DNA from: Chiloscyllium plagiosum
Taxonomy: Eukaryota
Length of the DNA: 64,000 bases
Direction of reading: 5' to 3'
Assembly (NCBI RefSeq): GCF_004010195.1
Contig: NC_057718.1
Span: forward strand, 59,631,622-59,695,621
Shown: in pieces, positions 18,266-51,339 of the stretch
Layout: each line of letters begins with the position of its first letter
Position numbering within the stretch: the first letter of the stretch is position 1
Notes under the pieces: generated by a model
What the model was told of the DNA's origin: nothing
The model's input: the letters and a program-made list of their open reading frames with translations, nothing else
The model's database searches: none
Translations under genes and position numbers: made by a program

Positions 18266-18571
18266 CGGGACCCCCCCAACTCCACTGCCGCCATCACCTC
18301 AATGATGCCGTGAGTCTCAACTCCAGGCCTAACACAACCAGGAGACCCCCGACTCCACCTCTGCCATCACCTCAACGATGCCGGGAGTCTCCACTCTGGG
18401 GGTCTACCACAACCAGGACCCCCCTAACTCCACTGCTGCCATCACCTCAATGATGCCAGGAGTCTCCATTCCAGGCCTAACACAACCAGGACCCCCCCAA
18501 CTCCACTGCCGCCATCACCTCAATGATGCCAAAGTCTCCACTCTGGGGGCCTACCACAACCAGGACCTCCT
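18266..18571. repeat. Tandem repeat of ~73-75-bp units x4, alternating A/B variants
   Basis: Unit is CCAGGACCCCCCCAACTCCACTGCCGCCATCACCTCAATGATGCC..GAGTCTCCA, ending alternately CCAGGCCTAACACAA or CTGGGGG(T/C)CTACCACAA. Confidence 0.9.
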
Positions 18572-23314: not shown

Positions 23315-23529
23315 AAGTGAGGACTGCAGATGCTGGAGATCAGAGCTGAAAAATGTGTTGCTGGAAAAGCGCAGCAGGTCAGGCAGCACCCAAGGAGCAG
23401 GAGAATCGACGTTTCGGGCATAAGCCCTTCTTCAGAAATCTGAAGAAGGGCTTATGCCCGAAACGTCGATTCTCCTGCTCCTTGGATGCTGCCTGACCTG
23501 CTGCGCTTTTCCAGCAACACATTTTTCAG
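23315..23529. mobile_element. Penelope pLTR-derived palindromic insertion (91-bp arms)
   Basis: Arms 23346-23436 and 23439-23529 are reverse complements with one mismatch. TSD AACTGGGAA[G/A]AAGT at 23301-23314 and 23530-23543. Confidence 0.88.
23440..23470 (+). ncRNA. Minimal Penelope-type hammerhead ribozyme motif
   Basis: CUGAAGA-A-GGGC(UUAU)GCCC-GAAAC-GUC: conserved core, 4-bp helix II, palindromic ACGU helix III, and a GUC cleavage triplet. Helix I is weak. Confidence 0.6.
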
Positions 23530-23701: not shown

Positions 23702-24302
23702 CCATAAGACTACAAGATATAGGAGCAGAACTAGGCAAAAGTGAGGACTGCAGATCCTGGAAATCAGATACAAGGTTAGAGTGGTGCTGGAAAAACACAG
23801 CAGTTCAGGCAGCATCCGAGGAGCAGGAAAATCGACATTTCAGGCAGGAGCCCTTCATCAACCCGAACCATTGATTTTCCTGCTCCTCTGATGCTGCCTG
23901 ACCTGCTGTGCTTTTCCAGCACCACTCTAAATCTAGGAGCAGAATTGGGCCATTCACTTTATCATATCTGCTCAACCTTTTGATCATGGCTGATAATTGC
24001 CTCAACCCCATTCTCCTGCCTTCTCCTTGTAACCATTGATTCCCTACTAATCAAGAGCCTGTCTATCTTTTCTAAAATCTACTCAATGACTTGATCGCCA
24101 CAGCCTTCTGTGGCAATGAGTTCCACAGCTTCACCATCCTCTATCTGAAGAAGTCACTTCTCATCTCACTTCTCAAGGGTCATCCTTTCATTCTGAGGCT
24201 CTGCCATTGGATCCTAGTACTAGTGGAAGCAACTTCTCCACATCCACTCTATCCAGGCCTCTCAGTATTCTGTAAGTTTTAGTCAGACACCCCTCATCCT
24301 TC
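23702..24302 (-). mobile_element. CR1 3' fragment, interrupted by the insertion at 23737-23933
   Basis: CATAAGAC..ATAGGAGCAGAA..GGCCATTC tail followed by typical CR1 3' sequence. Confidence 0.75.
23737..23933. mobile_element. Penelope pLTR-derived inverted-repeat insertion inside a CR1 tail
   Basis: TTAGAGTGGTGCTGGAAAA..GCAGCATC..GAGCAGGAAAATC is followed by its inverse. TSD-like TAGGAGCAGAA(C/T)T(A/G)GGC at 23720-23736 and 23934-23950. Confidence 0.8.
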
Positions 24303-35322: not shown

Positions 35323-35839
35323 CCCATCATTTAAAGTAATCCTCTTTTGCTTTAAAAAAATGAATACCAACCTTATTTTCATGTTTTCTACTTTAGAAAT
35401 GGCATCATCCATTAAAAACAAAATTGAAGTCTGGACTCAGACACATTGGAATCACATTTCAGGAAGATGTCAATAAGTATTGGATGGTTACTGACATTGC
35501 GCTACTGGAGCTTTTTACAAGCATTTGCCCATGTGCTGTATCTTTCCTGAGTAGAGAGAAGTATAAACATGAGAAATCCTCAGCTTTATTCCACAGTAAC
35601 ACACACTCTGAGATCAAAAATCAATGTCCTTTTTTATTCAAAACACTTGTTTCCCAAATTTTCCCAAATTTCTTGTCTAATCTTTGTAGTATTGTATGAT
35701 TTTTTACAATTTGATATCATCCTGAACTTTCACCTGGATTAGCAATGAACGGAGCAGGGAGTGAAGTCAAAGTGACATTGTGGGAGGCGAAGGGAGAGAG
35801 GAATCAGTGACAGACCCTTTGAGAGAGATGCATGGCGAG

Positions 35840-36995
35840 TGCAGTCAGTGATTGGCTCTGTGGGAATGGCGCATGGGGAGAGAAGTGATTACTGTGCTCT
35901 GTGGGAATGCAGCATGGAGTGAGGAGTCAGTGATGGGCTCTGTGGGAATGGGGCATGGGGAGTGGAGTCATTGATGGGTTCTGTGGGAGTGGGGCATGGG
36001 GAGAAAAATCAGTGATGAGCTCTGTGGAAATGCAGCATGGGGAGAGAGGGGATTGATGTGCTCTGTGGGAATGGGGCATGTGGAGAGGGTTCAGAGATGG
36101 GCTCGTTGGGAATACAGCATGGAGAGAGAAGTCAGAGATGGGCTTTGTCGGAATGGGGCATGGGGAGAGGAGTCAGTGATGGACTCTGTGGGAATGGGAC
36201 ATGTGGAGAGGAGTCAGTGATGGGCTCTGTGGGAATGAGGAATGGTGAGAGAATTCAGGGATGAGCGCTGTGGGAGTGCAGCATGGGCAGTGGAGTCAGT
36301 GATGAGCTCTCTGGGAATGAGGCATGGGGAGAGGAGTCAATGGGAGGGCTGTGTCGGAATATGGCATGGGGACTGGAGTCCGTGATGGGCTCTGTGGGAG
36401 TGGGGCATGTGGGCAGGAGTCAGTGAAGAACTCTGTGGGAATGAGGCATGGGGAGAGGAGTCAGTGATGAGCTCTGTGGGAATGCAGACTGGGGAGAGAA
36501 GTCAGTGATGGGGTCAGTGGGAATTGGGTATGGGGTGCGGAGTCAGTGATGGGCTCTGTGGGAATGGGGCATAGGGAGATGAGTCAATGGTGGGCTGTGT
36601 CAGAATATGACATGGGGAGAGGAGTCCATGATGGACTCTTTGGAAATGAGTCATGGGGAGAGAAGTCAGGCATGAACTCTGTGGGAATGCAGCATGGGGA
36701 GACAAGTGATTGATGGGCTCTGTGGGAATGCAGCATGGGGTGAGGAGTCAATGGCGAGCTGTGTGGGAATGGAACATGGGGAGTGGAGTCAGTGATGGGT
36801 TCTGTGGGAAAGCAGCATGGGGAGAAAAGTCAGTGATGGGCTCTATGGGAATGGGGCATGGGGAGAAGAGTCAGAGACGGGCTCTGTGGGAATGGTCAAT
36901 AGGGAGTGGTGTCAGTGATGGGCTCTGTGAGAGTGGGGCATGGGGAGATGAGTCAGTGATAAGCTCAGTGGGAAAGCAGCATGGGGAGAAAAGTC
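35840..36995. repeat. 41-bp G-rich minisatellite (~28 visible units), truncated by an assembly gap
   Basis: Consensus GAGGAGTCAGTGATGGGCTCTGTGGGAATGGGGCATGGGGA. Confidence 0.95.
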
Positions 36996-37495
36996 NNNNN
37001 NNNNNNNNNNNNNNNNNNNNNNNNNNNNNNNNNNNNNNNNNNNNNNNNNNNNNNNNNNNNNNNNNNNNNNNNNNNNNNNNNNNNNNNNNNNNNNNNNNNN
37101 NNNNNNNNNNNNNNNNNNNNNNNNNNNNNNNNNNNNNNNNNNNNNNNNNNNNNNNNNNNNNNNNNNNNNNNNNNNNNNNNNNNNNNNNNNNNNNNNNNNN
37201 NNNNNNNNNNNNNNNNNNNNNNNNNNNNNNNNNNNNNNNNNNNNNNNNNNNNNNNNNNNNNNNNNNNNNNNNNNNNNNNNNNNNNNNNNNNNNNNNNNNN
37301 NNNNNNNNNNNNNNNNNNNNNNNNNNNNNNNNNNNNNNNNNNNNNNNNNNNNNNNNNNNNNNNNNNNNNNNNNNNNNNNNNNNNNNNNNNNNNNNNNNNN
37401 NNNNNNNNNNNNNNNNNNNNNNNNNNNNNNNNNNNNNNNNNNNNNNNNNNNNNNNNNNNNNNNNNNNNNNNNNNNNNNNNNNNNNNNNNNNNNNN
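36996..37495. other. Assembly gap (500 N)
   Basis: Run of N. Confidence 1.
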
Positions 37496-39481: not shown

Positions 39482-41334
39482 TTTCCACAGATAGAAAATT
39501 AGTTTTTTTGGCTTAGTACCAAAGCAATTATTTTGTAGTAATAATTACTTTGTACATTGTTGAAAACCAGGTTACAGCTCATTGACGCATAGGTTTCTTT
39601 GGAGTTTCACAAAGAGAATGACATAAAGTGGAAGTTTACATCTAGACGGTGATTTCTAACTGATTTCCAATTGTGGAACAGCTTGTAGAAACTTCTGGAT
39701 TTTCACATTTAACTGTGCAAATGCAGAATTCAGAAGTTACGGTCTTGCACAAAGTAATTGCATTGCACACTGATAATTTTGCCATCATTACAAAATGAAT
39801 ATTTGGTTAAATAACAAGATAGAATAACACTATGAGAAGACAATGGTGAGAAAAATTATTTTGACATGCTTCTGCAAATCTGTCTGTTCAATGATTATAA
39901 AGATATTTAGCCAGTGGTGTCATGTGATCAGCTGTTTTGGTTGGTGTTTACAGAATTGTTGAGAGTTAAGTAAGAGTGCACTGAGCATGCATGTAGACTA
40001 TTATTTCAGGACTTCATTGGCAGATGAGAAAACACTTTTAGAATTCAGCCTCCAGCACAGAATATCAAATAGAGTTTGTATTCCACAGCGAAGGTCGCCT
40101 CTAAGATCAGGGCTTGTACATCCCATTATTGTACTTTCTTTACCTACTCATTCATCTACTGATGAACATTTGTTCAATCCAGCACCATAATATACCATGG
40201 GATTAAGCTTTGATTTTTAGCACTGTTTTACATATAGAGGATGCATTTGAGAAATTAGCGTATATTCTTGATTTACAGGTCCAGGAATTTTTATTCAGTT
40301 GTTTGAAAAAAACCTCAGACTGTGAATCTGAAATTCAGATAATGAATGAAGAAAATTTGAAACTTAGGTTAGATAAATCATCACATGTACTGAAATATAG
40401 TGAAAAGTATTGTTTTATGTGCTAATTTCAACGAGTTGCCACTCTCCAGTGCCATCTTGGATCTCTTTAAATTGAATAATATAACGACAATACATTTCTA
40501 TTGTTTTTTTCACAGTGTCCAGTTATTGTTCATCCAAGGGTTCAATTCATTATCACCCACTTGGCTGTGATCTCCTTCCCCACCCCTTACCCCATTTCTT
40601 CCTACTTTTGCTCCTCACCTGATGGTCATCCAGATGCTGCTGCTGGGCATTGACAATTATTTAGTCAGTATCTTCACCCAACCCTGGCTGCTTGCCCAGT
40701 CTGAACCAGTTGTACACATTTTCCGAATCAACTTGTTCTTAACTTACACATCTCTATTGCAGCTGGGACTTAAATCTGGGTCTCCTAGTTTAGATGTAAG
40801 AACACTACCATTGAACCACACCTTTTTAGATGTGCTCCCTGTTAGAGAATTGAACCCCTGGCTCCCACAAAACAGACAGGGAGACTAACTTCCATATATA
40901 ATCTCTTAATATTATTCAATCATGAGTTAGTTTAATGATTTGTCTTCATTCATGTTTCATAATGTGAGCCTGATAATTGCATCTTTTACACTGCTTGATT
41001 GCTTAGGCCCATAGATGGAGTTCATGATTCGTGACAGACTCCACAGAAAATGTTTGAGAGACCTGGGAACTAGCAAAACACATGCATGCTGAAACCTCTA
41101 AGTTCTGTAAAAAAAAAAAGCAGGAGTCACTCTGCATTACTCTGATATAGATCAGAAAGATGTACAGCAACCCAATCCAAACATCACACAAGGTGACAAG
41201 CAGTTAGAACACACGATAAAGAGGTTTTGGAGAACATCCACAGGCCCAGCAATATTTTTTTCTTCATCATCCCTTGTTCTGGGAATGATAGCTTTCAGGG
41301 TTCAAGATCTGCATGCTCATTATGTTGAAGGACA

Positions 41335-41715
41335 ATTTGAGTACTTGTATATTTTATTGGACCAGAAAGCAGGTGAATATTTGAGGAGCTTATAGAAGGC
41401 ATGTCCTACATTTGATGCATTAGTAAGTGCTTTCAAAAAATACTTTAGATCAAAGGAAAGTGAGATGATTGAATGATATATGTTCTATCAGCAATCCCAA
41501 AGAATTTGTGACCATCAAATACGATGTAGCATTGAGGCAGTTTACTTCCACATGCAAATTTGGAACATAACCAAATAACTATTTTGTGGCCAATTGATTG
41601 AAAAGATTTAAATTCCATAAATGAGAAAACATCTCCTCATGGAAGATGATATTGTAATCTTGGTAAAGACAATGACTTTAGTCGCCCAGATCAAATTGAC
41701 CATGCTGGATGCAAG
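41335..41715 (+). pseudogene. Decayed Gypsy gag capsid region
   Basis: Reads VYFIGPES.*IFEEL / ALVSAFKKYFRSKESEMIE*YMFYQQSQ / VALRQFTSTCKFG / GQLIEK..MRKHLLMEDD..LVKTMTLVAQI, matching the gag consensus L.H..G.EG..IF / YF.PK.N...ERY.F..R.Q / LR.LA..C.F / DQLIE. Confidence 0.7.
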
Positions 41716-41929
41716 ACATTACTCAGGAATACACCCTTAAACTCAGGGTCACAGAAAATACTACCCATTCAGTACCATTATACAGGTAATGACAAGGAGA
41801 TCTCAGCAATCTCATGCTCTGTAGCAGCCAGAAACCTTCAAAATACTGCCAAAACTATGGAAATGCTTATTAAATCACAACACTGTGCTGATCAGAACAA
41901 AGGAAGAAAAGTATAACTTAAACTCAGAG

Positions 41930-42440
41930 TGGAAACATTTTGCAAAAATATGTAGGCCATCAAAGAAGTTGTCATCAAACCAAATAGAATAATTTTTTTC
42001 CTGAGAGTGAAATGTGATATGTATATACATCAGAGCAAGTAAAGCTATCATTTTAAAGATAGCAAATCTTGCAGGAGTGGGATTGTCCACAGAAATATGA
42101 TACAAGAGAAAGAGACCATTCCAGTGCAAAGCATGTAAGGCTTTATTTCAGATTCCCTTTTTGTTGCAGAGAGATCTGCTGATACACAACACTGAACAAT
42201 CTCTCAAATCTGATCTATGTCATAAAGCTTTTGAAACCCCCTCTGTGCTTAAGAATCATTAAAAGACACGTATTGAAGAGAAAGAGAAGATTTGTCCATA
42301 TTGTAGCCAGAAATCTGCCAGCAATGAAACATTACATGTGAACATTTGGGGAGTGCTCCCACTGTGGCAAGGCTTTCAGCAAGAATGAGAGATTAAAGAT
42401 ACATTTTAGAAGATGTACATATGGGGAGAAATCTTATCAG
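41930..42440 (+). pseudogene. PRDM5: Processed, decayed PRDM5 C2H2 zinc-finger fragment
   Basis: From 42113: [73 protein letters not shown]; after a frameshift at ~42350: ECSHCGKAFSKNERLKIHFR. As recalled, vertebrate PRDM5 reads [93 protein letters not shown]. Upstream KKLSSNQ and SCRSGIVHRN match earlier fingers. Stop codon at 42260-42262. Confidence 0.82.
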
Positions 42441-43720
42441 AATAGAACTAGACTTTAATAAGGAGAGAAGCTGAGGGAATATGTGAAGACAAAAAAAAGT
42501 TATATGATAGGTCATAGTTGTTGTATACCACTGACCATTCTTAATTCATTGACACCAATTAATGAGATGAGATCACAAAGTGACATATTGAACTCCAAGT
42601 AATGAGTAGTATCTTTGTTATTTAAAACAATTAAATTGAAAACACGGTCTTTGGTTAAAATGAGAAAAAAAATTATGTTTAATAGTTTTCAGTGTTTTAT
42701 TCTGCTCACCTTCTAACTGATCCTTGTACCTTGCTTGATTGCTTAAACTTATGGGTGGAGCTAGTGAGTCATGTAGCTGACTCCACGGGGAAATAATCTA
42801 GAGATCTGGGAGCTAGCAAAACCACTTACATGCTGAAATTTCTGTGAAGTTCTAAGATGTTTAAAGTTCTGTAAACAAAATATCTGGATTAAAAGCTAGT
42901 GTTACCTTTGCATTTCTTGGATGCAGTTCAGCTCAGTAAGAGATATATTAACGTATTTCAAAATTAACAATAACTTTGAATCTATTACCCCAAGTACTCA
43001 TTATGCTCTTTGTATGACATCCACTCTCCAAAATAATAACAAATGTTTCTAAGCTCTTTTGTACAAATCTTGATTTGCATTATTTTCTGCAACCCTATAA
43101 CTCTGTGTTCAAGGTTTCAGTCCCTTAACCCACTATTTAACATTCTACAAATCCTCAGACTACACGTGCAACTCTACATCAACAACCTAATGGAATCTTC
43201 TGTGCTTTTTGTTACTGTTATTTTGGTCTTTATCTTTTTTCTGGATCTCCTAGCTTTACTGGGAGAGCTTGCAACATTTTCAATGTTACTCTTTGCAATT
43301 TCCTCCTACAGCTCTTCTAAAACTTGCCCTCACTACATTTTAAAAGTTTCTTTACACTCTATTTCGATAACCAATCTTTTGATCACTTCTCATTTTCTGT
43401 TGCTGTGCGACCATTTCTTCCTTTTCTGCAATTATTTGGCAAGACTGGCATTTTCACCCTTACAGAAAGAAATTTTAGTGCTTGAAACAATGTCAAGCAA
43501 AAATGCGTGGTACCAATTAATAAATAACATATTTCTTTAATATGTGCAGATTACACCTCTGCTTGTTCACGCAACGTTATTCTTCCCCATATCCACATAA
43601 TCCAATGAATGCAGTAAAATTGAAATAATAACATATTATTTGTACATCTTGACCATTGAATACTCAAACTCTCTGCAGTCATATTCTGATATTGAAGATA
43701 ATAAAACAAAAAAAAAAATC

Positions 43721-43758
43721 AGTGACCTATTGATAGTCATGATTATCAATAGGTCACT
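43721..43758. repeat. Near-perfect 38-bp palindrome
   Basis: AGTGACCTATTGATA-GTCATGAT-TATCAATAGGTCACT: perfect 15-bp arms around a TCATGA centre. Confidence 0.9.
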
Positions 43759-47312: not shown

Positions 47313-47861
47313 CCAGTGATGATCATACTCAAGTCCAACGTTTTGCCTCAAGTAAGATCAGTGTTATCTGTTTCTCCTGAATATATCTTCAGACATTCTG
47401 ACAACATAAGTTTCTTGTTGAGCTGTTTCTCTGATGACTATGACTTTGACTTTCTCTCCGTTAATCATATTTTCTGCCCTCTCTTTGAAGTTGACAGCAT
47501 TTTCCTCCTGTATCTAGAGCTGTGCCAGCTCTGCTCCTTTTTGCTGTGGCTTTTTTTCTGTTGTCTTACATTCTCATGTTGTTGAGAGGTTATGTTTGCC
47601 TCGAAGTTTTGGTTAGAACCTTCTCCTGTTAATCATTTTGCTGGTTAATATCCATTGTTTCATGGTGTTCCGCCATAACTCAGTCAAGCTCATTCTCAGT
47701 TTGGATTCTTATGAATCAGTGTCTACGGTTTTGACTGTTTCTTTTAACTCTCCATTTGACTAAGGATGGAAAAAAGCACTTGCCACTTGCTTAATGCCTG
47801 TCACACCAGTGATCTTCCTAAAATCTTTGTTCACAAATTGATATCAATTTTCCAATTCTAA

Positions 47862-48335
47862 TTAGAGTCATAGAGTCATAGGCAACAGATGCTCCAGTCC
47901 AACTCGTCCATGCCAACCAGATGTCCTAAGTTAATCTAGTCCCATTTGCCAGCACTTGGCCCATATCCCTCTAAACTCTCCTTATTCATATACCCATCCA
48001 GATGCCTTTTGAATGTAGTAATTGTACCAGCCTCCATCACTTCCTCCAGTAGCTCATTCCATACAACCACCACCCTCTGTGTGAAAAGGTTGCCCCTTTT
48101 AAATCTTTCCCCTCTCACCTTAAACCTTTGCCCTCTAGTTCTGGACTCTCCCACCCCAGGGAAAAGACTTGTCTATTTACCCTAACCATACCCTTCGTGA
48201 TTTTATGAGCCTTCAATGCTTTAGGAAAACCAGCTCCAGCCTGTTCAGCCTCTCCCTATAGCTCAAACCCTCCAACCCTGGCAACATCCTCGTGAATCTT
48301 TTCTGAACTCTTTCAAGCTTCACAACTTCTTCCAG
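47862..48335 (-). mobile_element. CR1 3' fragment
   Basis: (CATAGAGT)n-type tail; ORF 47936..48154 is the CR1 C-terminus (SRTRGQRFKVRGERFK..FTQRVVVVWNEL). Confidence 0.9.
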
Positions 48336-48368
48336 GAAACTATGCATCACAAAGATTCTGGCACTTCA

Positions 48369-48616
48369 CCAGACGTTGCTGGAAAATCCCAGCAGGTCGA
48401 GTAACATCTGTGAAGAAAAATCAGAGTTAACATCTTGGGTCTCGTGACCCTTCCTCAGAACAGTTCAACAGGTCTGGCAGCATTTGAGGAAGGGTCACTG
48501 GACCCTTAATGTTAACTCTGTTTTTCTTCATAGATGCTGCCAGACCTGCTGAGCTTTTCCAACAACTTCTGTTTTTTTCTCCTGATTTACAGCATCGGCA
48601 CTTCTTTCTGTTCTTT
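48369..48616. mobile_element. Penelope pLTR-derived inverted-repeat insertion
   Basis: GAAGAAAAA.CAGAGTTAACAT..GGGTC..GTGACCCTTCCTCA is inverted against TGAGGAAGGGTCAC..GACCC..ATGTTAACTCTG. TTCTGGCACTTCA is duplicated at 48356-48368 and 48617-48629. Confidence 0.8.
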
Positions 48617-48952
48617 TTCTGGCACTTCAATCCTTCTTGTATTATAGGTGACTGGACTAACATAATCTTCACTCTAAGATCAAACAGATCTGCTATGAAT
48701 CTTTCCTATTTCATTTCAGATAATCTTGATGAAATAATTGGCTTGGGGCTTGGCTGTGTATGGCACATGTTTAGCATTAAGAAATATAATTCTGTATGTC
48801 TTTTAAACGCCTTGACAATATACTGGCTGTTGTGCTCTTCCTTTACACTTTATGATACCTGTGTGTCCCCAGCCAAATTTCTGTAGGATTTTTTATTACA
48901 ATAATTAAGGTACAACCCTTCTATGATCATTCATCAATACTGTTGTTAAGTG

Positions 48953-49073
48953 AAATCAGAGGTAACGTTTTGTGTCGGGTGACCGTTCCTCAGATACTGC
49001 CAGACCTGCTGAGCATTTCATGTAATTTTTGTTTTTGTTTCTGATTTACAGCATCCACAGTTCTTTCAGTTTT
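48953..49073. mobile_element. Short Penelope pLTR-derived insertion
   Basis: pLTR motifs; TACTGTTGT[T/C]AAGTG duplicated at 48938-48952 and 49074-49088. Confidence 0.75.
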
Positions 49074-51339
49074 TACTGTTGTCAAGTGTTGTTTATGCTC
49101 GTGTACATTTTCAGTTTTACAAGACTATATTTCAACTGTGTTTGCAGACAGAGTTATCGGACCATTCTGTACACCTTGTCAGATGATTGAGCTGCAAAAA
49201 TGTTTCCTTAGTTGTCAGTAACATGTTGGTTATTCCTGTAGAATAACACTCTGCTTCTCTGACAAGAATAAGATCTATTGGCTGTTTGATCCACGGGTGC
49301 CCTCAAGCATGTACTCACCTATACTTGCACCTTGTCTGGAATGTGATATATTCCATGATCATTTCTCACTGGATTACGCCTAAATCTCTGTGTGCACAGA
49401 ATTTTTGTGATTCTTTAAAATCTCAATAATGTCACCAAAGGCACATCATGCAGATCAATTTAAAATTTCAGTCCCATGATTTAGTCTGCAAATCTTTCAT
49501 ATACCCATGTAACTGCTAATGCATAATTGTCTATAACTGTTCAGTCACCATCAGTGCTCGATATGTAAATTAGATTAGTTTTCATGTTCTGTCAGTTTTT
49601 CACTTGAATAGGTATTGTTCTTAGTCTGTGAACAAAGTATCTGTGGCTACTATAGTAAAGAAGCCTAAGTATCAGGGGAAAATAACTTTTCTTTAATCCT
49701 TTCAAAGCATCAGTCTGTTTCAGAGTCAAATACCATTCCTGGCCATTTTCAAAACCCCCTTAAGAGTTGAGTGAGTCCACATATGTTGGGGGTGAACCTT
49801 CCAATTTGATTTGCCATACCTAAGACTGCACTGTACATCACTTATACATTTTGGTGCCAGACTCATTCAAGTCTTTTGACTTCCTTGGATCCACAACAAT
49901 GCCTTCCCAGAAGGATAAACCAATAAAAGAGGTGAATAAAATATATTGGTCTGACTCATCTTGTAAACTTCAAAATGGAGGATCAGTACAACATGCACAT
50001 ACATTTCCAAATATTACTTTTTTGCCACTGATTTGTCCCTCTGATTTGTTCTTTGATAATGTCTCCTAGAACTGTGAAGTCTTTGTTTTGAAAAGAAAGG
50101 TATATTTCATTTACTTCATAGTTTTATCATGCCCCAACCCTCTGATTGTGTTCCTTCTTTGTTTTACCATGCATGAGGATATTATCTATTTGACAAATTG
50201 TTTCCCTGTTTCTTTTTCAGGATTTTTGATGTTGCCCTTTGGAAAATCTCAGGCACAAAGGAGATCCTAAGTGCTAACCAGTTGAAAGAACACTACCCTA
50301 AAATGATGTAATAAATATAATCATCAATCTTGACTCTTTGTCAAGGGTTATCTGCCAGGATCCACTGTTGGCATTCAGTTTTGTGGAATCTTGCTCATTG
50401 CCAATTTTGCCAAGCTATCATTGACAAATGAAATAGGATAGTTTACTTTCTGGCTCCTTTGTATGTGGATCTCCTTTAGTTAAGCAATGTTATTTCTACA
50501 TTTGTCTTGAGAACAATTATTAACCCTAAACATCATTATATCAATTCTATCACTGGCAATATGACTATTCTTTCAATCATGCTGTCTAACTAAGATTTTA
50601 TTATTCCAAAAAAAATGACGATGAATATTCTTGTAATGTGCCAACAAATGGGTTTAGCACCTTCTTGTAGCCATATCCACACTCTCAAAAGATCTTTGTT
50701 TTTGAGGTGATGAAGGATCTGTTAATTTACAATATCTTTTAAAATATCCCAATCGGCCATCTGATTAACAATCCATTCACCCTGCTGGACGGTTGTTGAC
50801 TTTGAATCTGCTAGTGAATTTGTTTGAAGCCTTGTCTTATATATCCTCATATGGTTAGTGATGTTGGTTTCTGCTGTCTTGGCATTTTGGCAGGCATTTG
50901 GGAGGAATATGATGCTTTTATGGGGTTTCTCCATCCAACTGTGTCAGAATAGGGGGGGACTTGTTGGGCAAAAGGGTCTGTTTCTACACTGTAGGAATTC
51001 TAATTCTAATTTTAATAATCCCTGATGATTTCTTGCAGGATTGACTGATTTAGAACCCTGATTCCTGCCCTTGTAGCAAATTGCATTATCTGCCATCATT
51101 AAATTCTCTTTGAATTGAAGAGAGTTTGATACCTTTCATTATTCACATCAACAACAATGTGATCTCTAACTAACTCATCCTTCAAAGTTCCACAGACAGA
51201 ACAGCTTACTAGATAATATAAATCTGTTACAAAGACTTCCATTAAATCCCCTAAATGTTGAAATTGTTCGTTAACTGTTGCCTGTTGGATCACTAAATTT
51301 GTTCTGGGCTAAAGGGCAGGTTAAATGTTTTAATCAACG

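What the first reader, a model, noticed from the sequence alone, without database searches (positions are those of the whole stretch)
40950..42950. LTR retrotransposon carrying a captured host PRDM5 zinc-finger mRNA in place of pol
Seen in sequence: diverged direct repeats enclose a decayed Gypsy gag followed directly by consecutive C2H2 fingers with no introns. Knowledge: the finger sequences (RPFQC..[41 protein letters not shown].H) are characteristic of PRDM5, whose finger array is split over many exons in vertebrates. Inference: a PRDM5 mRNA piece was incorporated by template switching during reverse transcription, making a ~2-kb non-autonomous gag-ZnF chimera. LTR-mediated retroposition is known in principle, but I know of no description of such an element in a cartilaginous fish. 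If multicopy, it would be a retroelement family spreading a host transcription-factor DNA-binding domain.
Basis: partly seen in the sequence, partly recalled or inferred. Interest (0 to 1): 0.85.

Follow-up and report, generated by a model that had tools for sequence, protein, structure and literature searches.

The report
Gypsy element family carrying spliced PRDM5
This is a dead copy of an old jumping gene whose polymerase region is replaced by an intron-free piece of the host's PRDM5 zinc-finger gene, likely picked up from messenger RNA and then copied to several places; such capture is a known process, and this is a new example.

Summary
Direct repeats at 40927-41188 and 42673-42969 (73% identical) enclose a decayed Ty3/Gypsy gag (41260-41990) followed at once by PRDM5 finger sequence (42004-42440); no pol is left. 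The PRDM5 piece runs over four exon borders seen in isoforms, and a likely fifth, without an intron. It lacks one whole finger, a gap found in none of 119 PRDM5 proteins compared. Contigs of a public DNA run of the same species hold at least two other, about 83% identical copies with the same gap; one of them also holds the gag end, so the chimera likely moved as a unit. The locus is shared with a second species (2.9% different), and the two LTRs differ about eleven times more. Best reading: LTR-mediated mRNA capture by template switching, then a small burst as a non-autonomous element, then decay. This is the known kind described by Tan et al. 2016 and in crocodilian ERVs. Not shown: target-site duplication, switch-point microhomology, origin of 42441-42656, an in-frame or functional fusion, expression, host lineage. 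In passing: a separate, conserved gag-plus-20-finger gene of spiny-rayed fishes that I did not find in print.

The parts
40927..41190 (+). 5' LTR (left direct repeat), ends in CA at 41189-41190; first bases decayed
41191..41200 (+). possible primer-binding site; 7 of 10 letters fit the tRNA primer site I recall for this clade, two of three misfits are CpG-decay type
   Evidence: sequence; the motif is recalled, not tested
41260..41990 (+). decayed Ty3/Gypsy (K02A2.6-like) gag: capsid region and end of zinc knuckle, many stops and frameshifts
42004..42440 (+). intron-less PRDM5 piece, about residues 327-539 of P0002, with internal gaps
   Evidence: four sub-pieces, each 0 of 200 shuffles as good; the 5' one only narrowly, 38.5 vs 37.0
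42206..42216 (+). site of a 29-residue (one finger) deletion between two K-C-D repeats of PRDM5, shared with other copies
   Evidence: records 3 and 4
42265..42266 (+). likely exon border crossed without intron: genomic contigs of two species begin to match at 42264, an RNA-like contig runs across
   Evidence: records 5, 13, 18
42441..42656 (+). unassigned: faint PRDM5 likeness not significant (61 of 200 and 12 of 200 shuffles as good); no integrase tail
42657..42672 (+). purine tract, 15 of 16, just before the right repeat: polypurine tract or poly(A) remnant
   Evidence: 94 of 63451 16-mers of the window are as purine-rich
42673..42969 (+). 3' LTR (right direct repeat), TG at 42676, ends in CA at 42968-42969; many other contigs match it

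Best explanation
This is a decayed copy of a small family of non-autonomous Gypsy LTR elements in which a spliced piece of PRDM5 stands where pol would be, likely taken up from mRNA by template switching during reverse transcription and then likely copied as one unit by an intact helper element. Shown: two LTR-like repeats, gag up to its zinc knuckle, intron-less PRDM5 sequence directly behind it, no pol, other copies with the same one-finger gap, one of them joined to the gag end, and an orthologous copy in a second species. Inferred: co-packaging of PRDM5 mRNA in a particle; a switch from element RNA to mRNA at the end of gag and back before the 3' LTR; the one-finger gap as a further slip between two K-C-D repeats before the family spread; mobilisation in trans; neutral decay since.
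For: Repeats far above chance. Gag-pol relatives are single frames of about 1300 residues, while only 235 bases lie between the last significant PRDM5 match and the right repeat; tails of 52 polyproteins match that stretch no better than shuffles (best 38.5; null best-of-all 29-41 in 12 shuffles): pol is replaced, not interrupted, the test used by Tan et al. Isoform breakpoints among 119 PRDM5 proteins mark exon borders at residues 389, 421, 505/506 and 534, all inside the matched 437 bases; genomic contigs in both species match 42264-42346 only (records 5, 13), whereas an RNA-like contig spans 42239-42346 (record 18) and its loose ends read as intact spliced PRDM5. X1 records 3 (42165-42233, 12 differences, no gap) and 4 (42174-42295, 21 differences, 3 gap letters) are colinear across the one-finger gap, which 0 of 119 proteins show (P0098 has a different gap). 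Record 3's depth (8.59) is that of the joint 41968 to 42165, and depths add up at 41957, so that contig holds both gag end and fingers. A second joint, 41815 to 42245, stands in both species. Copy-to-parent distance (JC 0.15-0.19 in four pieces) is close to half the LTR-LTR distance (0.33), as expected if capture and insertion were close in time.
Against: No target-site duplication of 5 or 6 bases, and four 4-base matches of which only one has TG inside and none has CA. The A-run before the right repeat could be a poly(A) tail. At two of the borders (389 and 505/506) the junction bases themselves are deleted, and border 421 rests on a single isoform. The joints have short sides (32 and 25 letters), and the tool warns of joints under 30 letters or at low likeness. 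Only 19 of 99 pieces and 17 of 143 loose ends were shown; no other copy was seen whole with two LTRs. The 80% filter biases the distances to parent and paralogues low. The intron-like flank of records 5 and 13 was not among the loose ends shown, so their being the parent exon rests on their start position. No microhomology could be tested.
Confidence: 0.8

Rival explanations
1. A LINE-made processed pseudogene of PRDM5 landed in an existing gag-only (pol-deleted) LTR element, and the composite was then copied by the LTR machinery.
For: A-rich tract at 42657-42672 and a T-run at the 5' junction; LINE fragments abound in the window (by eye); retrocopies in vertebrates track non-LTR content, 14,081 in cartilaginous fishes (bioRxiv 10.64898/2026.06.26.734816, passages).
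Against: Significant PRDM5 match ends at residue 539 of 623, well before the stop; the piece starts exactly where gag ends and is in the same sense; the purine tract sits where a polypurine tract belongs.
Confidence: 0.12
2. The element first sat in or next to the PRDM5 gene; an LTR-driven read-through transcript was spliced from the end of gag into PRDM5 exons, and recombination with element RNA supplied the 3' end (retroviral oncogene-type transduction).
For: The 5' end of the piece (residue 327-341) lies close to the exon border at residue 336. The route is the one summarised in PMC4299795 (passages).
Against: The 5' end is too decayed to place on the border; no LTR remnant in the parent intron could be looked for. 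The end product is the same as in the best explanation.
Confidence: 0.15
3. One insertion only; the other copies arose by DNA-level segmental duplication.
For: One contig in species B is 93% identical over 70 bases (record 14); no second whole element was seen.
Against: Extra contigs match inside the element and at the LTR, not in the right flank 42970-43220, where depth is that of the single locus contig in both runs (table 2); most paralogues are 17-20% different.
Confidence: 0.06

Closest known systems
LTR-mediated retrocopies of animals (Tan et al. 2016, PMC5131818; abstract, sections 5 and 6 read)
   Same: Partial, 5'- and 3'-truncated mRNA piece replacing part of the internal frames between two LTRs; same sense; Gypsy among the carriers; some copied again as non-autonomous elements (CG17604_r); found in zebrafish (5 of 7), chicken, mouse, human.
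   Different: Their cases are young, with visible microhomology; this one is old (LTRs 27% apart), shared by at least two species, with a shared internal deletion; no cartilaginous fish among the species in the sections read.
Host-mRNA capture by crocodilian ERVs: nectin3 in CrocERV31, KIT-ligand in CrocERV29 (Chong et al. 2014, PMC4299795; passages read)
   Same: Captured host mRNA replaces an element gene; several copies (six); five share a small deletion; capture predates a species split.
   Different: Carrier is a retrovirus-derived ERV and env is replaced; their frames are partly intact and under purifying selection; here the carrier is a Gypsy element, pol is replaced and the copy is dead.
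SCAN-zinc-finger genes (gag of Gmr1-like Gypsy fused to C2H2 arrays; PMC8321522, passages read)
   Same: Gypsy gag sequence in front of C2H2 fingers.
   Different: SCAN genes are working host genes using part of the capsid; here whole gag, LTRs kept, no open frame, fingers traceable to one host gene.
Gag-plus-20-finger proteins of spiny-rayed fishes (P0179 and 15 others)
   Same: Capsid region of the same broad gag group fused to a C2H2 array.
   Different: Fingers are not PRDM5 (30-33% identity); their gag scores 84-128 against the window versus 239 for the best element: an independent fusion.

Membership tests
Ty3/Gypsy LTR retrotransposon (non-autonomous) | Two long direct repeats enclosing the internal region | tested here: met
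   repeat also matched by many other contigs
Ty3/Gypsy LTR retrotransposon (non-autonomous) | Gypsy-type gag | tested here: met
   Pfam on the window frames and one word-index search found nothing
Ty3/Gypsy LTR retrotransposon (non-autonomous) | TG...CA ends, primer site, polypurine tract | tested here: inconclusive
   right repeat TG/CA, left repeat CA only; primer site 7 of 10 by recalled motif; purine tract 15 of 16
Ty3/Gypsy LTR retrotransposon (non-autonomous) | Target-site duplication | tested here: inconclusive
   none found; at 27% divergence a 5-base duplication would survive intact about 1 time in 5 (inference)
Autonomous Ty3/Gypsy element | pol (protease, RT, RNase H, integrase) | tested here: not met
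   no match above chance; two weak tblastn hits (E 0.003, 0.006 among 52 queries) fall inside the PRDM5 piece
LTR-mediated retrocopy (Tan et al. 2016) | Intron-less copy of a multi-exon host gene | tested here: met
LTR-mediated retrocopy (Tan et al. 2016) | Retrocopy replaces internal element sequence between 5' and 3' LTR | tested here: met
LTR-mediated retrocopy (Tan et al. 2016) | Microhomology at switch points | not testable with these tools
   no nucleotide sequence of the parent mRNA or of an intact helper element in hand
LTR-mediated retrocopy (Tan et al. 2016) | No LINE hallmarks (poly(A), own duplication) | tested here: inconclusive
   A-rich tract at 42657-42672 is ambiguous; 42441-42656 unassigned
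Domesticated gag-zinc-finger gene (SCAN-like) | Open fused reading frame kept by selection | tested here: not met
   8-12 stops and 5-6 frameshifts in gag, more in the fingers; no gag in the 120 listed finger hits (30 further hits were not listed)

The most novel reading that the evidence does not exclude
The capture put PRDM5's DNA-binding fingers in frame behind a whole gag, the family spread while making a capsid-finger protein, and one copy elsewhere still keeps the frame: a snapshot, with LTRs and donor gene still readable, of the route by which gag-zinc-finger transcription factors (SCAN-ZNF, and the fish gene seen here) are born, and one of a series of host-mRNA captures that make LTR elements a main retroposition route in this genome.
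Probability: 0.1. Interest if true: 0.75.

Novelty: new member of a known kind. Interest (0 to 1): 0.42.

Why it matters
It is a clear, old, multi-copy case of an LTR element carrying host coding sequence in a vertebrate, with a conserved transcription factor as donor and a shared deletion that marks descent from one master. It shows how a gag and a zinc-finger array come to lie side by side, the architecture of SCAN-ZNF genes. As this copy is dead and the process is described, the gain is an example and a marker for dating, not a new principle. Unchecked notes on KMT2D, RBPMS2 and CLIP1 captures in the same genome suggest that a genome-wide count would matter more than this one locus.

Tried and rejected
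No whole genome was held, so copies were counted only through contigs. Pfam on six frames found only sub-threshold C2H2 hits and no gag; a word-index search with the gag frame found 0 of 65 candidates; tblastn against phages found nothing; Rfam found nothing in the window. No RNA holder was listed, and 0 reads of RNA run X21 were laid from about 2 in 100 of the run, which the tool marks as no test: nothing is concluded on expression. PRDM5 likeness at 41779-41886 was rejected (24 of 200 shuffles as good); the gag alignment covers it. PRDM5 likeness at 42454-42627 is not significant. The idea that the fish gag-finger proteins descend from this chimera was rejected. The idea that the missing finger is a skipped exon was rejected: no isoform among 119 has that gap. 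I first read the loose end before 42263 as an intron; it belongs to another contig and, by eye, is decayed PRDM5 coding sequence (15 of 27 letters, mostly transitions), so it points to one more copy and not to the intron. An absolute date was dropped: the pedigree rate of 7e-10 per generation (PMC10587355, passages) would need about 2.4e8 generations, which is not credible, and the host lineage is untested. Literature searches with no relevant result: PRDM5+retrotransposon+shark, 0 papers; PRDM5+pseudogene+retrocopy, 0; non-autonomous LTR+captured+host gene+zinc finger+fish, 1 review; Gypsy+LTR+gene capture+elasmobranch, 3 reviews; listings only.

Full report
Observation. The stretch 40927-42969 is bounded by two direct repeats, 187 of 255 aligned letters identical, K2P 0.33, score 145 against at most 56 in 200 shuffles and 49 in 185 random stretches of the window. 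No other copy of any part lies in the window. The right repeat has TG at 42676 and ends in CA at 42969; the left ends in CA at 41190, followed by ten bases that resemble the tRNA primer site I recall for this group; a 15-of-16 purine tract precedes the right repeat. No target-site duplication is recognisable. CpG is depleted to 0.12 of expectation.

Gag. Pfam and a word-index search missed it, but phmmer without word index returned 5 proteins at E 8e-7 to 8e-5, one named K02A2.6-like with a reverse transcriptase domain. A profile of these found 87 proteins among 6659 candidates, mostly single-frame gag-pol polyproteins. Frameshift-aware alignment places gag at 41260-41990, ending with the zinc knuckle, with 8-12 stops and 5-6 frameshifts depending on the guide. 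Neither protease and RT nor the tails of 52 polyproteins match the rest above chance.

Fingers. The frame 42101-42340 hits PRDM5 at E 4e-41, 156 bits; the best solved finger protein of another kind scores 67 bits. 119 of the 120 listed hits are at least 85% identical to the PRDM5 core and the last is a gapped PRDM5 form; 30 weaker hits were not listed. Four sub-pieces from 42004 to 42440 beat all of 200 shuffles; pieces upstream and downstream do not. The copy lacks 29 residues, exactly one finger, between two K-C-D repeats, and three shorter stretches.

Splicing. No PRDM5 gene sequence was held, so exon borders were taken from isoform breakpoints among 119 proteins: residues 336, 389, 421 (one isoform), 505/506, 534 and 569 of P0002. 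The matched 437 bases cover 389 to 534 without an intron; at 389 and 505/506 the junction bases are deleted, at 421 and 534 they run through. A further border at 42265/42266 is suggested: one contig in each species matches 42264-42346 only, while a contig of an RNA-like run spans it, and that run's loose ends read as intact spliced PRDM5. That this run is RNA is the tool's guess.

Copies and age. laid four runs at 80% likeness. The locus is whole in one 5.3-kb contig of species A and present with both flanks in species B, 69 differences in 2414 letters. Beside it, 40 of 41 contigs laid in A and most of 43 in B match only in part, piling up on the LTR, on gag and on 42197-42358. Two contigs of A are colinear across the one-finger gap at 17-18% difference; one of them also holds the gag knuckle end (joint 41968 to 42165, same depth, sums checked). 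A joint 41815 to 42245 occurs in both species. A further contig at 42263-42313 has loose ends that look like decayed PRDM5 coding sequence on both sides (by eye). So species A has at least three copies with the gap, counting this one, and likely four or five chimeric or related copies; this is a floor, since copies under 80% are unseen and only 19 of 99 pieces were shown. The LTRs differ about eleven times more than the two species (0.33 against 0.029), and the copy differs from its parent by about half the LTR distance, with the caveat of the filter.

Mechanism. Most likely a Gypsy particle packaged PRDM5 mRNA; reverse transcriptase left the element RNA at the end of gag and returned before the 3' LTR, so that pol was replaced (inferred; the pattern is that of Tan et al. 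2016). The product kept LTRs, primer site and purine tract and could be copied in trans (inferred). The one-finger gap arose before the spread, since copies share it (shown for two other contigs), likely by a slip between repeated finger starts (inferred). All that is seen now is decayed. Rivals are a LINE-made pseudogene landing in a gag-only element, read-through and splicing from an element inside the gene, and segmental duplication; the first two stay open because the parent mRNA could not be aligned to 42441-42672 or to the 5' junction. Whether gag and fingers were ever one frame is left open.

Comparison. It works like, and meets the testable defining features of, an LTR-mediated retrocopy (PMC5131818: abstract, sections 5 and 6 read). 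The closest vertebrate parallel is nectin3 in CrocERV31, six copies of which five share a small deletion (PMC4299795: passages). A survey of 244 vertebrate genomes counts 14,081 retrocopies in cartilaginous fishes and, in the passages found, speaks of non-LTR elements only and does not name PRDM (10.64898/2026.06.26.734816: passages; its supplements are closed and may list this locus). Searches found no description of this element; the library lacks most subscription papers and repeat databases. Earlier notes of this scan, unchecked, report KMT2D, RBPMS2 and CLIP1 captures by LTR elements in the same genome and call it a shark; I did not test either point. They lower the singularity of this locus.

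In passing. 16 of the 87 hits are fish proteins of about 1000-1130 residues with a gag capsid region and about 20 C2H2 fingers, 54-82% identical to P0179. They are not PRDM5-derived and not the closest gag. They are not among the seven animal gag co-options named in PMC8321522 (passages; supplements not read), and (listings) showed no paper on them. They show that this architecture can become a lasting gene.

Verdict. Real, well supported, a new member of a known kind; interest 0.42.

Noticed in passing
proteins P0179-P0183, P0185-P0192, P0194, P0195, P0209: A conserved gene of spiny-rayed fishes (Micropterus, Epinephelus, Sebastes, Centroberyx, Corythoichthys and others): Gypsy gag capsid region fused to about 20 C2H2 fingers, annotated only as zinc finger 585/665/420-like. 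Looks like a domesticated gag-finger gene independent of SCAN; not found in print.
   Followed up: partly
window 47700-50400, minus strand: Remnant of a Gypsy-type pol (tblastn E 7e-7 and 2e-6), separate from the element studied.
   Followed up: no
window 42683-42925: The LTR is matched by many other contigs in both species (depth three to seven times the locus): a wider LTR family or solo LTRs.
   Followed up: partly
window 40740-40890: Two decayed tRNA-like SINE heads on the minus strand just left of the element (by eye; not tested, no Rfam hit).
   Followed up: no
window 35750-37000 and 18268-18570: A G-rich tandem array running into a gap of about 500 N, and a shorter array of about 75-base units.
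   Followed up: no
window 23346-23529, 23776-23930, 48370-48571: Palindromic repeats of 150-200 bases with copies elsewhere in the window (MITE-like).
   Followed up: no
window 43721-43758: A near-perfect 38-base palindrome.
   Followed up: no
P0169, P0170, P0193: Predicted proteins in which this gag group is joined to unrelated domains (B9, C2, P-type ATPase); may be gene-model artefacts.
   Followed up: no
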